A DNA stretch of 63,489 bases, filler included, from Kipferlia bialata (lineage: Eukaryota), in assembly GCA_003568945.1 (NCBI GenBank). It is 6 parts of 5 records of this genome, joined end to end, with 100 filler letters (N's around TTAATTAATTAA, not from the genome) between each part and the next. Parts side by side here need not be neighbours in the genome. Positions count along the whole stretch, not along the records: positions 41,198 to 55,968 come from BDIP01000013.1; 5 more parts are not named here. One strand, 5' to 3'. Made by a program: the position numbers and the translations under genes. Below, piece after piece: positions 41,198 to 47,215 of the stretch. The notes below the pieces were generated by a model. It did not search any database. It saw only the letters and a program-made list of their open reading frames with translations, and was not told where the DNA came from. Positions within the stretch are counted from its first letter, which is position 1, and every line of letters begins with the position of its first letter.

Positions 41198-41419
41198 CAT
41201 GGACAGCAGTGACAAGAGGGACAAGGTAATAGAGTGTATATGTGTATAGATATATATATTGAGAGAGAGATGGGTTCGGCAGCAGTGACCAGAGACAACA
41301 AGGTGATGCACAATGACCTATGTATATATCTGGGTGGAGGTCATTACCCCCCCCCCCCACCTCATCCTTATTCTCTCTTTTACATTAGGACAAGATCTCC
41401 TACACTGAGCGTGCCGCCA

Positions 41420-41463
<44 letters not shown>

Positions 41464-43968
41464 CTAGGACAAGATCTCCTACACTGAGCGTGCTGCCAGG
41501 CTCTCTCTCTGTAGGAGACTGGTTGCATTCCTCAGAAGGGTGGACTTTATGGTGGTGGACTCCCTGTACGAGCTAGGTATGCGTGTATAGGATATTTGTA
41601 TTAGTCTCTCATATTCATTCGAGTTGGTACCTTATGTCTCACTTTGTTGCATCAACACCTGTATATAAATATATATAAGTAGAACTGTATATGTTTATAG
41701 AGAGTGTCGTATGTAGGTAGACGTCTTGTAATTCTCTTCTCACTGTGTAGGCATCAACACCGTGCTCGAGATGGTCGAGACCTTCCGCGAGGCTGCTGCT
41801 CTGTCGCCACCCTCACCCTCAATCATCAAGTGAGTATGTGTGTGTATTGAGTGTATAGTTTTTTACTATTGCATATGTCTGCATTGAGTATCTCTTACTA
41901 ACAGTGCATATATCTAGCTATGTATCCCTCACTCCTAGGACTGACACCGAGACCCTCGAGGAGATGCTGCCATATATATATATATACATATTTATATATA
42001 TATACTTATTATACGTATATATGTACTGCATATCTAACCCTCTAGGACTGACACCGAGACCCTCGAGAAGATGCTGCCACATATATATGTATATATATAT
42101 ATGTATATGTATATGTATTGCTGGTTGAGTATATACATATGTACTGCATATCTTACACGTAGGACTGACACCGAGACCCTCGAGGAGATGCTGCCATATA
42201 TATATGTATATATATATGTATGTATTTATATATTCTTTATATGTATATATAGTATCCATGTCTCACCCCTAGGACTGACACCGAGACCCTCGAGGAGATG
42301 CTGCCACGCATCGACCCAGACAACCCGCTCAAGGTATCATTCTCTCTCTCTCTCTCCCCCTCTACACCCTTAATATCAGGTCAACATCCACACTGATGGT
42401 GCCACCCCAGCCTTTGTGACTGAGCTGACTGTCTGTGCCATGAGGAGGGACCACCCTGCTATCAGCATTCAGGTATACAGTGAAGTATATTGTATATGAA
42501 GATCACACACTGTGTATCTGCTCTTTGCTGCCCTTATGTGTTTACTGACTCTTAGGCCGTGCCCTCCCTCCCTGGAGAGTTCATCGATACCAACCACACC
42601 GCTGGACTGAAGCTGAGGTACACATCCACACATACACACACACATGTATTTACACTAATGTATACCTGCGTCTTCCAGACTCACTCCCAACCCTACACAC
42701 ACGTGTATACGTACCCGTTCCATCTATCCATTACCATCTCACCCCCAGCCCCGTGTGGTCTGACTACATCTCCATGCTGGAGGTGTCCACAGAGGCCCTG
42801 ATTGCTATGGTGACCAGGTACCGTATATATACTGTATAATATGTATATAAATACCTGTATATATTAATATTATGTATATATGTATACAGACACACACATA
42901 TATATATCCACAGAGGTCCTGATGGCTATGGTGACAAGGTACTCATGTGTATATATACACTCATATATATCCATTATAATGATGTGAGTGTGCCGTGAAC
43001 TATATCCTTCTCACCCCCCAGCGTGTCCCGTCTCATGACCCACGAGGACTTCAGTATATATATGTATATATATATATACACACACACATATATATATAAA
43101 TATGTATATACCTCATTGGTATCGGCACTGCGTGCTTACCTCAGTGTGTCCCGTCTTATGACCCACGAGGACTTCAACGACATCACGGCACCCTTCAAGC
43201 AGGTATAACAGTCAGTGGGGCTTCTACACCCTTTATTCTCTCCCTCTACACCCTTAATCCCTAGGAGGGCCAGGGTGCCGATGGACCCGATGTGACGTCT
43301 CTGTTTGTGGTCAACCCCGAGTTCCACTCCTTAGTGGCTGAGCTGACAGCCATCTTTAAGGGTCAGTGAAGTATATAGTAGTATATATAGTATATTATAT
43401 ATAGTATGTAGTGTATACACTGTGCAAGTTCTCACATCCAGGTGCCTTTGACAAGACCTATCGTTCTCTCTCTCTCTCTCCACACCCTTATATTCAGGTG
43501 CCTTTGACAAGACCCTTGAGTTCATCCGGTGCTTTGAGCCCTACCTCGACACCTGGAACAGGTACAGTACATATATATATTCATATCTATATATATAATA
43601 TCTATATATATAATGTATATCTATTGTATATATTTCATCTATTATATATATATGAGCCTTACCTCGACACCTGGAACAGGTATAGTACACAGTATATAAC
43701 AGCATATTCATATGTAGTGTATAGAAAGTACAACAATTGCTCTATATTTTATATATGAGCCCTATCTCGACACCTGGAACAGGTATATGTGTAGTATGTT
43801 TATATATACAATACTCATCCCACAATCATATATTTGTATTAGTATGTTATATGTTACCTATATTTATAGTGTGCAGTGTACTCACCCTAGGTACAGAGAG
43901 TTTGACAGGAACGGCCTCGAGAAGAGACTCCTCACACTGCCACCTGCTCTGCGGTCAGACAAGGACAG

Positions 43969-44002
<34 letters not shown>

Positions 44003-44293
44003 CCCCTCTCTCTCTCTGCCTCCACCCTATATTCACCCTAGGGATGGAGAGCTAGCTCCTCTGAGCGGAGGCCTCAACTCCAACATGATAGACCCCGACG
44101 CCCTGTACAAGGAGATACACGATGTGGAACTGGCTAGGTATGCATATAGTATATTGAAGATATTTATATATATCACACTTAATGCTGTATATATGTATAT
44201 ATGTGTCCTTCTAACCCCCCCCCAGGGCCCTGTTTGTGTCCATGCCTGACTCAGTGGATGTGGGTCTGTTCAGAGTGGACTGCAGGGTACGTA

Positions 44294-44327
<34 letters not shown>

Positions 44328-44545
44328 GATATATGTGTATATAAATATATATTGATATTTGTGTATATATATATGTATGTATGTGGGCCTGTTCAGAGTG
44401 GACTGCAGGGTACGCACATCTCTCTCTCTCTCTCTCTCTCTACACCCTTATAATACCAGGCCTTCAAGGCTGCCATGGTCCCTGTCCNNTCTCTCTACAC
44501 CCTTATAATACCAGGCCTTCAAGGCTGCCATGGTCCCTGTCCCCA

Positions 44546-44587
<42 letters not shown>

Positions 44588-44883
44588 ACCCTTATTCCCA
44601 GGCCTTCAAGGCTGCCATGGTCCCTGTTCCTACTATCACCATCGACCAGTACAAGACTATTGTGCCACAGGCACTGAGCATGAGGTGTCAGGCCTTGTTG
44701 CAGGTGAGTGTATGCAGTTTGTATATGTAGTCCTCGTCCCCCTCTCTCTCCCGTCTCTCTTGATAGGGCCTGACCCGCGCTATGTGGTACCTGTCCAAGA
44801 CTCATCCCTCTCTCTCTCTCTCTCTCTTACTATTAGGGTCTTAACCGTGCCATGCGCTATCTGTCCAAGACCCCCTCCTCTGT

Positions 44884-44931
<48 letters not shown>

Positions 44932-45753
44932 CTGTCTGTCTCTCTTTTACTTATATACAGGGTCTCAACCGTGCCATGCGCTATCTGTCCAAGACCCCCT
45001 CCTCTGTCAAGAACTACGTGCTGTACCTGGAGTACCTGAACGACACCTTGAACACCACCCTGCCCACTGCTCAGACAGTGTTTGATAACCTGGAGGTATG
45101 GATATGTGTTTATATGTATATGTGTTAGAGTATATATGGCCATATGTATATATACGTATATTTTCCTCAACACCACCCTGCCCACTGCTCAGACAGTGTT
45201 TGATAACCTGGAGGTACACATATAGTCACTACATACATATATATATATGTGTGTGTGTGTATGTATATGTGTGTAGTATGCCCACGGCACAGACTGTGTT
45301 TGGTAACCTGGAGGTATAGTTGGAATTGACATTTTTATATTGGCTACATGTATTGTGCTGTACTTCTACTGCTCTCCCCTCACCGCCAGTCCCTGCATGA
45401 CCTTCTGGACATGTAATCACTCTGCATTATGTATCTCTATAGATATCGTATATTCTATAAGTGTATGCCCTCTACACCCCCCTCTCACCCCCAGTCCCTG
45501 TATGACCTTTTGGACAACATCGAGTTCCCAAAGGGCATGGAGGTATGGCATATATAGTATGTGTGCTTCTTTAGAGTATCTACTGTATTGTTATAATACA
45601 GCAGATCTATCTCTCTGTCTCTCTCTCTCTCTCTCTACACCCTTTATTGATGCCAGGACTCTGCTGTGTTTGCCACCACCAGCCAGATGCTGACCCAACT
45701 CAAGACGCATGCACTCACAGCCGAGAGTGCCGCAGAGTCACAGCACAGCAGGT

Positions 45754-45795
<42 letters not shown>

Positions 45796-46143
45796 CTGGT
45801 TGAATATATATATATGCATACAGATATATACCCTCTCTCACCCCTAGGTGGCAGGCTGCCCTTGAGCGTGAGGCCGATGCCCTGAACAGTGAGATCAGGG
45901 ACATCAGGAGTGCAGTCCTGGCAGCTAAGCTGAGGTATAATGTGTATAGTATAGTAAATATTGTGTGTATAGTATATATGTGTCTGAGCTGAGTCTCTCT
46001 CTCTCTCTCTCTCACCCCCAGGGACATCAACGAGCCAGTCACTGTCATTGTGTCTGAGCTCAGTGGCCTTGTGGAGAGGCTGGATGCAGTGGAGGCCGGG
46101 GTGGCAGAGTGCCTGCAGCACCAGGTATATATACATATATATG

Positions 46144-46185
<42 letters not shown>

Positions 46186-47215
46186 CTGGATGCAGTGGAG
46201 GCCGGGGTGGCAGAGTGCCTACAGCACCAGGTATCAGTTTGACCCTTTCTTCCCTTATCTACACCCTAAATCCTCCTCTACACTCTTATTCCCAGGTCAT
46301 CATGGAGTTTGAGGGCACCACCCTCGATGCTACTCCCACTCTTAGTGTTATATACATGCATGCACATATATATATGTATTAATATGTGGTATATGTATAT
46401 ATTAATCCCAGGTCATCATGGAGGTTGAGGGTACCACCTTCGATGACCTCAAGGAGACGGCCAAGGTGGTCAGGCTCACACACCAGCTGTGGGCCACAAG
46501 GTTAGTGCTAGTACTAGTATATATATATATATATACTAGTACTACTATTAACAACTACTACTATATATAATGGTATATGTATATGGAAGGTGAGGAGACA
46601 GCCAAGGTGGTCAGGCTCACACACCAGCTGTGGGCTACCAGGTATGGGTGTATAGTTCATTAGAAATACATTGTTTAACTCATATACTCTGCGTATACCC
46701 CCTATTGATCCATCTGGTCCTCTGTCACTAAGACATGGCTCACAGTACAGAAGTATATATCCCCCCTCCCCTCTCTCTCTATATATATATATGGGTGTGT
46801 GATACTATACTGATACTGATACTTTCTAACCCCCCAGATCCACCTGGTCCTCTGTCACTAAGACATGGCTCACAGTGGACCTCGAGAACCTCGACATTGA
46901 GGTATGTGGGTCTTTCAATCCCCTTTACTATCTCACCAACACTTAGTGTCCATATACCCTCATTGTCACTCGCTAGACCCTCATTTCAGACTATGGAGAA
47001 GGAGATCCAGGCCGCTACCAAGCTGGCATTCAAGGCCGGTAAGTTGGAGGGCAACCCCATCATTAGAATGTATCAGTACATGTATACTTATACACACTAT
47101 ATGTACAAATACATATATCTAACAACTAGAGAGGCAGCTGCCCGAGGCCCAGGACAACCCCATCATCAGTGACTTCAAGGGACGGGTGGCAGAGTTCAGG
47201 GTGGCTCTACCTGTC
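41198..47215 (+). CDS. Axonemal (inner-arm, DNAH6-like) dynein heavy chain, tail region only, >20 short exons, partial at both ends
   Basis: Spliced: KISYTERAARLSLCRRLVAFLRRVDFMVVDSL..., VDVGLFRVDCRAFKAAMVPVP, YLSKTPSSVKNYVLYLEYL, TTFDDLKETAKVVRLTHQLW...W...W...L.NLDIE.MEKEI...NPIISDFKGRVAEFRVALPV, which runs into the DHC_N2 region. Confidence 0.8.

What the first reader, a model, noticed from the sequence alone, without database searches (positions are those of the whole stretch)
41389..46745. Intronic 'echo' copies of exon edges, with splice sites, throughout the dynein gene
Seen: many introns carry 1-3 copies of the first or last 20-50 nt of the neighbouring exon together with its AG or GT, separated by unrelated (TA)/(CT)-rich spacers of ~50-120 nt. 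AG|GACTGACACCGAGACCCTCGAG(G/A)AGATGCTGCCA occurs at 41939, 42046, 42163 and as the working exon at 42273. AG|GGTCTCAACCGTGCC.. occurs at 44767, 44837 and working 44961. ..AACCTGGAG|GT ends at working 45095, then 45213 and 45313. Acceptor echoes lie upstream and donor echoes downstream of the exon, and in the last two series the most distant copy is the most diverged. Inference: a recurrent boundary-centred duplication process that fills introns with intact decoy splice sites. The spliceosome must then either ignore them or use them for recursive or alternative splicing. I do not recognise this as a described systematic architecture.
Basis: partly seen in the sequence, partly recalled or inferred. 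Interest (0 to 1): 0.85.

Follow-up and report, generated by a model that had tools for sequence, protein, structure and literature searches.

The report
Allele-derived splice-junction mirages in Kipferlia introns
In a dynein gene of the free-living protist Kipferlia bialata, about half of the introns carry real copies of the neighbouring exon edge with its splice signal, absent from the assembled transcript; this repeat type is known from lancelets as 'mirages', but here the copies differ from the working exon mostly at silent positions, which suggests they are likely scars of recombination between divergent alleles.

Summary
A 22-exon, 596-codon model of a DNAH6-like dynein heavy chain fragment matches a spliced contig at 16 of 16 anchors. 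It has 21 echoes: 20 in 10 of 21 introns and one upstream of exon 1. Eleven echo junctions lie inside listed read-derived contigs with no differences. Another 21 echoes occur in six other modelled genes.

The architecture is not new: amphioxus 'mirages' are tandem copies of exon-intron boundaries that do not disturb splicing.

What is new is the divergence pattern. Exon parts are 94% identical, but similarity falls almost to background just past the splice signal. In dynein 27 of 37 differences are synonymous (P about 4e-4 against a neutral echo). Units are about 106 nt long. So echo and working edge likely diverged as coding alleles and were joined later by recombination (about 50%).

Against this: the synonymous excess is not significant in the six other genes (17 of 35), and no divergent second haplotype was seen. 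There is no sign that echo sites are used, and the spacers are not wholly unrelated.

The parts
41468..47220 (+). Axonemal dynein heavy chain gene fragment (DNAH6-like), 22 exons, 21 GT-AG introns, 596 codons
   Evidence: (16 of 16 anchors)
41389..41431 (+). Acceptor echo of exon 1 (43 nt, 1 synonymous difference); far end merges with a CT repeat that the exon shares for 10 nt
41649..41659 (+). Short acceptor echo of exon 2; AG lost
41939..42196 (+). Three acceptor echoes of exon 3 (41939, 42046, 42163), 34-35 nt, spacers 72-80% alike; TRF period 110-117, 80% matches
   Evidence: copy number not bridged
42907..43053 (+). Two-sided echo in intron 6: donor echo, 83-nt inner GT-AG interval, acceptor echo
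   Evidence: inside X1 record 2
43442..43458 (+). Acceptor echo of exon 9 (17 nt)
43653..43782 (+). Two donor echoes of exon 9, each with its own synonymous difference
   Evidence: one X1 contig spans working copy and both echoes
44381..44550 (+). Intron 12: donor echo of exon 12 and acceptor echo of exon 13 (44515; 3 of 3 differences synonymous). The extra copy at 44460 is an exact 53-nt duplicate beside an nn gap, probably a scaffolding artefact
44767..44886 (+). Two acceptor echoes of exon 14 (8 of 35 and 1 of 50 differences)
45169..45411 (+). Intron 14: two donor echoes of exon 14, 76-nt inner interval, acceptor echo of exon 15
46180..46329 (+). Intron 18: donor echo, 65-nt inner GT-AG interval, acceptor echo of exon 19. 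The public model P0122 reads the acceptor echo as a mini-exon; the transcript arithmetic excludes it
46593..46746 (+). Intron 19: donor echo of exon 19 (3 of 3 differences synonymous) and acceptor echo of exon 20 with AG lost
34612..37427 (+). Echoes in another gene on another scaffold, including three acceptor copies at 34995, 35096, 35196 (working 35305)
   Evidence: gene model by open frame only
52373..55594 (-). Nine echoes in the neighbouring minus-strand gene
   Evidence: gene model by open frame only

Best explanation
The introns hold copies of the adjacent exon edge with its splice signal, absent from the assembled transcript, and these are likely non-functional scars of recombination between divergent alleles, in which exons would be the only good islands of homology. 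Shown: each echo-bearing intron is an ordinary-length core (50-109 nt) plus units of about 106 nt, each unit being an exon edge (median 30 nt) and a spacer. Similarity stops at the splice signal, and differences in the exon part look like coding evolution. Inferred step 1: a break near an exon edge is repaired from the homologous chromosome, and synthesis runs across the exon-intron junction into that allele's poorly matching intron. Inferred step 2: the new end cannot anneal and is joined back inside the exon at a short microhomology, often a dinucleotide repeat. The donor's edge becomes the working one and the old edge is left inside the intron. An equivalent route is a duplication in cis followed by replacement of the working edge from another allele. 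Inferred step 3: arrays then grow or shrink by unequal exchange, which explains shared far breakpoints. Only events that leave an intact outermost junction survive selection, which forces the polarity. Inferred step 4: the spliceosome picks the site nearest the exon (exon definition), because echo sites score as well as working sites.
For: Exon parts are 93.6% identical (78 of 1219 differences, 42 echoes). Intron-side positions 6-30 match at 43% (acceptors) and 35% (donors), against 31% and 30% for unrelated introns. In 15 echoes with near-identical exon parts (11 of 520 differences), non-repeat intron flank positions mismatch at 42 of 171, and the two divergences are uncorrelated (rho 0.04). 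No echo has a flank above 85% identity, which fresh tandem duplications would give. In dynein 27 of 37 unique differences are synonymous and 27 are at codon position 3 (pS 0.14, pN 0.02). P is 2e-5 to 1e-3 against 'neutral echo plus purified working copy' for kappa 1-8 with omega 0, and 0.005 after dropping the two most diverged echoes. Far ends overlap a spacer dinucleotide repeat more than chance: 8 of 12 such ends, P 0.007. Literature: k-mer peaks suggest K. bialata is diploid (PMC5874029, passages); metamonads lack NHEJ and Fornicata lack Rad51A but have two Dmc1 paralogs (PMC8516963, section 8); Dmc1 stabilises mismatched joints (PMC6719624, abstract).
Against: The synonymous excess is not significant in the six other genes (17 of 35; P 0.14-0.48 at omega 0). 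In dynein it falls to P 0.08 when four echoes are dropped, and the per-echo sign test gives P 0.06. Run X1 shows no 'other letters' over 6.1 kb, so no divergent second haplotype was seen here. No relative locus was found to compare alleles. Spacers are rich in TA and CT repeats and may simply mutate much faster than GC-rich echoes. Echoes were detected by exon-side similarity, which inflates exon-side identity. Synonymous differences lean to working-T and echo-C (18 versus 5), which a symmetric allele model does not predict. The microhomology total is driven by two cases.
Confidence: 0.5

Rival explanations
1. Classic mirage minisatellite made in cis: slippage or microhomology-mediated tandem duplication across a splice junction. 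The TA/CT-rich intron part then scrambles quickly, while the GC-rich exon part decays slowly or is refreshed by conversion from the working copy on the same chromosome.
For: TRF calls 41934-42307 a tandem repeat (period 110-117, 80% matches). Spacers in three-echo series are 63-80% alike. Copies in a series share far breakpoints. Echo density tracks dinucleotide-repeat content along the window. The synonymous excess is not significant outside dynein. Lancelet mirages are explained as minisatellites with unequal crossing-over (PMC3087553).
Against: In cis, the synonymous share should not exceed about 0.39-0.47, but dynein shows 0.73. Conversion has no reason to stop at a splice site. Non-repeat flank positions are also 25% diverged where exon parts are 2% diverged.
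Confidence: 0.3
2. Echo sites are functional: they are used in alternative, nested or recursive splicing, and the exon-like part is kept by selection.
For: AG or GT is kept in 38 of 42 echoes, and echo sites score as well as working sites (working stronger in 10 of 21 acceptors and 11 of 21 donors). Five dynein introns enclose an inner GT-AG interval of 50-83 nt.
Against: Only 2 of 21 echo sites give an open in-frame insertion; 15 shift the frame and 13 bring a stop. The spliced contig has the working letter at 19 of 19 comparisons. Site retention is no higher than slow neutral decay predicts (inference from pN 0.02-0.035).
Confidence: 0.07
3. The working edge and spacer are the new strand of an error-prone fill-in (sloppy synthesis or single-strand deamination), with filler partly taken from other introns. 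Selection lets only silent changes through.
For: Working-T versus echo-C bias of 18 to 5. An 11-nt intron motif has 10 of its 14 window hits inside dynein introns.
Against: It needs error rates of 14-25% per base, beyond repair polymerases that I recall. The bias rests on a few echoes. Sixteen of 42 flanks resemble the resident intron.
Confidence: 0.07
4. Assembly artefact: stutter, or haplotypes placed in tandem.
For: The draft is fragmented and has gaps. The copy at 44460 is an exact duplicate beside nn. Ten of 21 junctions are not in the listed contig pieces. X1 may be the source sample.
Against: Independently built contigs cross 11 junctions at depth 333-447 with no differences, one of them running from intron 8 through exon 9, both echoes and exon 10. 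The copies and spacers differ from each other.
Confidence: 0.04

Closest known systems
Amphioxus 'mirages' (Adh3, globins BflGb6 and BflGb9, troponin C, PGBD5; PMC3087553, PMC3902484)
   Same: Tandem copies of an exon-intron boundary inside the intron, at either 5' or 3' boundaries. Many but not all copies keep AG or GT, regular splicing is undisturbed, units are 10-160 bp, and gene predictors mistake copies for exons.
   Different: Here the host is a fornicate protist, with 10 of 21 introns of one gene affected and mostly 1-3 copies. Unit length is narrow (median 106.5, SD 23). Similarity is confined to the exon part and splice signal, and differences are synonymous-biased. The passages I read on lancelet mirages give 81-100% identity for whole units and no codon analysis.
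[quoted passage not shown]
   Same: Local duplication that includes AG/GT signals, with one copy becoming intronic.
   Different: No new intron position arises here; existing introns lengthen and the coding sequence is unchanged.
Staggered-break repair footprints in Daphnia neointrons (PMC4202315)
   Same: Break repair leaves a direct repeat of an exon end and lengthens introns.
   Different: Those repeats are 4-12 bp, sit at the opposite end of a new intron and were linked to NHEJ, which metamonads lack.
Aborted SDSA or MMBIR with microhomology joining (PMC4888836, passages)
   Same: Short templated synthesis, disengagement and rejoining at microhomology give local duplications.
   Different: A resemblance in mechanism only; no repair product was observed here, and an allelic template is inferred.

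Membership tests
Mirage repeats | Tandem copies spanning an exon-intron boundary | tested here: met
   21 dynein echoes, all adjoining their own exon; 0 of 882 non-adjacent hits
Mirage repeats | Many copies keep AG or GT | tested here: met
   38 of 42
Mirage repeats | Regular splicing undisturbed | tested here: met
   Spliced contig fits working exons at 16 of 16 anchors; rare isoforms not visible in contigs
Mirage repeats | Whole unit, intron part included, is a minisatellite-like repeat | tested here: inconclusive
   TRF finds 41934-42307 and 44732-44901 at 76-81% matches, but 26 of 42 flanks are not clearly above unrelated introns
Mirage repeats | Copy-number instability between haplotypes or cells | not testable with these tools
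   One DNA run, contigs only
Intron gain by proto-splice duplication | Creates a new intron position from exonic AG/GT duplication | tested here: not met
   Removing the units leaves ordinary introns of 50-109 nt at the same junction; intron age was not tested
Recursive or nested splicing | Junction or lariat reads at internal sites | not testable with these tools
   No raw RNA reads were offered
Tandem exon duplication with mutually exclusive exons | Whole exon copies with both splice sites and compatible frame | tested here: not met
   Echoes cover at most 63% of the exon; 2 of 21 are open and in frame
Inter-homolog repair product | Echo sequence equals another allele's working exon | not testable with these tools
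   No second allele or relative locus found; only the indirect synonymous signature

The most novel reading that the evidence does not exclude
Mirages are a fossil record of repair between highly divergent homologous chromosomes. In Kipferlia, a lineage without NHEJ or Rad51A, Dmc1-driven repair repeatedly copies another allele's exon edge plus half-intron, stacks about 106-nt layers into introns, and is a main source of intron length. The echoes would then preserve other alleles, show inter-homolog recombination in a fornicate, and imply exon definition in a short-intron protist.
Probability: 0.3. Interest if true: 0.8.

Novelty: new variant of a known kind. Interest (0 to 1): 0.55.

Why it matters
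The origin of mirage repeats is stated as unclear in the lancelet literature (PMC3087553). A genome reported to hold about 125,000 introns (PMC5874029) could supply a large sample, enough to test origin by codon-position and flank statistics. If echoes are captured alleles, they give evidence of inter-homolog recombination in the free-living relatives of Giardia and a way to read past diversity from one genome. They also pose a clean splicing question: equally strong sites about 100 nt apart, with the exon-proximal one used in the assembled transcript. In practice they corrupt annotation, as in the public dynein model that includes one echo as an exon.

Tried and rejected
No whole genome is held, so no genome-wide count was possible. 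The run search listed two runs and no holder on record as RNA; X2 is RNA by guess only, though record 9 skips introns exactly. A second read-laying, on 47300-55960, returned nothing, so gene models outside dynein rest on open frames alone. Metagenome scan with the dynein protein: 115 pattern matches, none confirmed. Pfam on 11 single exons gave no useful hit.

Dropped before counts: the copy at 44460 (nn gap) and 6 echoes of the low-complexity gene at 47900-50000 (5 synonymous, 6 not). The echo at 46230 was removed by my complexity filter and added back by hand. The kinase gene gave no echo above threshold.

Coupling of donor and acceptor echoes in one intron: P 0.046 in dynein but 0.32 over all 52 introns, so I rejected a single two-sided event as a rule. 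An age gradient with distance was rejected as general (2 of 7 series).

Literature searches (listings seen) found mirages only in two amphioxus papers and none with all five terms on concerted evolution and synonymous change. I found no description in Kipferlia: 'duplicat' occurs 0 times in the main text of PMC5874029. The original Adh3 mirage paper is not held, and I opened no supplements; the lancelet alignments and the metamonad repair-gene tables there could bear on the comparison.
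Full report
Setting. The window is a concatenation of scaffolds joined by N-padded linkers, and the finding lies on the scaffold 41198-55968. A ribosomal protein L7 on another scaffold of the window is 100% identical to a protein labelled Kipferlia bialata. 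Exon 44961-45095 is contained in P0122, labelled a partial K. bialata dynein heavy chain. P0122's best solved relatives are DNAH6-type axonemal dyneins (E 1e-21), and it has the start of DHC_N2 (30.5 bits, just under the 31.9 cut-off). No whole genome is held.

Gene model. Twenty-two exons from 41468 to 47220, all GT-AG, give 596 codons without a stop. Record 9 of run X2 lies on these exons in 8 listed pieces with no other letters, and its coordinates fit the model with a constant offset at 16 of 16 anchors. It carries the working letter at all 19 working-versus-echo comparisons it covers. P0122 differs from my model by an extra mini-exon built on the echo at 46296 and by its C-terminal end; the transcript arithmetic leaves no room for the mini-exon.

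The observation. An anchored scan finds 21 echoes in the dynein region after dropping one beside an nn gap, and 21 more in six other genes modelled by open frame. Controls gave 0 hits in 882 non-adjacent edge-intron tests and 0 in wrong polarity. In an unanchored search, 17 of 22 exon-intron matches touched the facing edge; three of the other five are parts of the same echoes cut short by mismatches. Ten of 21 dynein introns and 24 of 52 modelled introns carry echoes. Every dynein intron over 131 nt has one and none at or below 131 nt does. Removing the units leaves cores of 50-109 nt, like echo-free introns. Units have a median of 106.5 nt (SD 23; 41 of 42 between 56 and 141), and exon parts a median of 29.5 nt. 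Echoes are uneven: an unbiased repeat scan found almost none in the first 25 kb, and their density follows dinucleotide-repeat content.

Artefact? Contigs of DNA run X1, built independently from reads, cross 11 of 21 echo junctions in the 8 pieces listed, at depth 333-447 with no differences. Six echoes share one contig with their working copy. X1 may be the source sample, so this is an independent assembly and not independent DNA. Series whose copies share long exact matches were skipped by the tool, so the four-copy series is unverified in number. The copy at 44460 is probably an artefact.

What the sequences record. First, similarity stops at the splice signal. Exon parts are 93.6% identical, while intron positions 6-30 match at 43% and 35% against baselines of 31% and 30%. 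Sixteen of 42 flanks still resemble the resident flank more than unrelated introns do, so many spacers are diverged homologues, but none is over 85% identical. Among 15 echoes with near-identical exon parts (2.1% diverged), non-repeat flank positions mismatch at 24.6% against 33% for unrelated introns, and the two divergences do not correlate. Detection by exon-side similarity inflates the exon figure, but a common clock would still make such flanks young.

Second, the differences look coded. In dynein 27 of 37 unique differences are synonymous (pS 0.14, pN 0.02). A neutral echo beside a purified working copy predicts a share of at most 0.39-0.47, giving P 2e-5 to 1e-3. The result survives dropping the two most diverged echoes (P 0.005) but not four (P 0.08), and the sign test gives 0.06. 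The six other genes give 17 of 35, which is not significant against this null; several encode low-complexity proteins. Third, 12 of 42 far ends abut a dinucleotide repeat, and 8 of these overlap it by at least one base (P 0.007; two cases overlap 10 and 6 nt).

Splicing. Echo sites are as strong as working sites by a matrix built from working sites, and 38 of 42 keep AG or GT. Use of an echo site would shift the frame in 15 of 21 cases, bring a stop in 13, and be open and in frame in 2. Function as alternative sites is therefore unlikely. That the exon-proximal site is used suggests exon definition (inference). Five introns enclose an inner GT-AG interval that could be spliced first without harm; this is untested.

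Mechanism. A partial exon copy without its second splice site cannot be under protein selection where it now lies. Coding-type divergence therefore implies that echo and working edge diverged while both were working exons, that is, as alleles. The simplest route is repair from the homologous chromosome that starts in the exon, runs into the other allele's mismatched intron, and rejoins inside the exon by microhomology. Duplication in cis followed by allelic replacement of the working edge is equivalent. Unequal exchange then changes copy number. The cell biology is compatible: k-mer peaks suggest diploidy (PMC5874029, passages); metamonads lack NHEJ and Fornicata have two Dmc1 paralogs and no Rad51A (PMC8516963, section 8); Dmc1 stabilises mismatched joints (PMC6719624, abstract). 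From memory, lancelets and sea urchins, where mirages are reported or were noted in this scan, are highly polymorphic. Against: no divergent haplotype is visible in X1 here, no relative locus was found, replication outside dynein is weak, and the working-T/echo-C bias (18 to 5) is unexplained. I put this at 0.5 and plain in-cis mirage formation with fast-changing spacers at 0.3.

Comparison. Earlier notes of this scan pointed to amphioxus mirages, and I checked the papers. PMC3087553 (passages) describes minisatellite-like duplications of intron-exon boundaries at both ends, units of 10-160 bp, AG/GT kept in many copies, normal splicing and an unclear mechanism. PMC3902484 (passages and section 16) describes 60- and 108-bp imperfect repeats at splice sites, one annotated as a false exon. 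The layout is therefore known. The Kipferlia case meets three defining features, is inconclusive for whole-unit repetition and could not be tested for copy-number instability. It differs from proto-splice intron gain (PMC2891723, passages) and from Daphnia break footprints of 4-12 bp (PMC4202315, passages).

Verdict. Real, dense and apparently harmless: a new variant of mirage repeats in a fornicate protist, with a divergence signature that suggests an allelic origin and makes that origin testable. Interest 0.55.

Noticed in passing
window 50231-50845, minus strand: A 17-nt microexon-like unit occurs six times about 100 nt apart; four copies keep both AG and GT. TRF gives period 93-101 over 50292-50931. 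The array runs into a 915-N gap, and which copy is spliced is unknown.
   Followed up: partly
window 47221-47260: The spliced contig continues 813 nt past 47221 with sequence whose first letters are absent from the window. The scaffold is probably misjoined at the poly-C run, or an exon is missing.
   Followed up: partly
window 42361-46287: An 11-nt motif beside CT repeats near intron 3' ends has 10 of its 14 window hits inside dynein introns, and X1 depth over two such introns is 10,000-20,000. It may be a widespread intron repeat or transfer between neighbouring introns.
   Followed up: partly
window 49250-49980, minus strand: Echoes in an E/K-rich gene are more diverged and keep amino-acid-like similarity; some may be real microexons. 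Left out of the counts.
   Followed up: partly
window 1-25000: The scaffold with ribosomal protein genes and a carbamoyltransferase (19341-20561; PF00185, PF02729) has short introns and almost no echoes. Echo load may be lower in compact housekeeping regions.
   Followed up: partly
window 12330-12388: A donor copy with only 4 exon bases and 14 intron bases duplicated at lag 41, the reverse of the usual pattern.
   Followed up: no
window 14809-14910, 21605-21736, 47588-47662: Ordinary minisatellites of period 15, 15 and 25.
   Followed up: no
window 45969-45984 and 47054-47069 (approximate): Short intronic matches (16 nt, score 13) to the interior of exons 18 and 22, not at an edge; possibly eroded old echoes or chance.
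   Followed up: no
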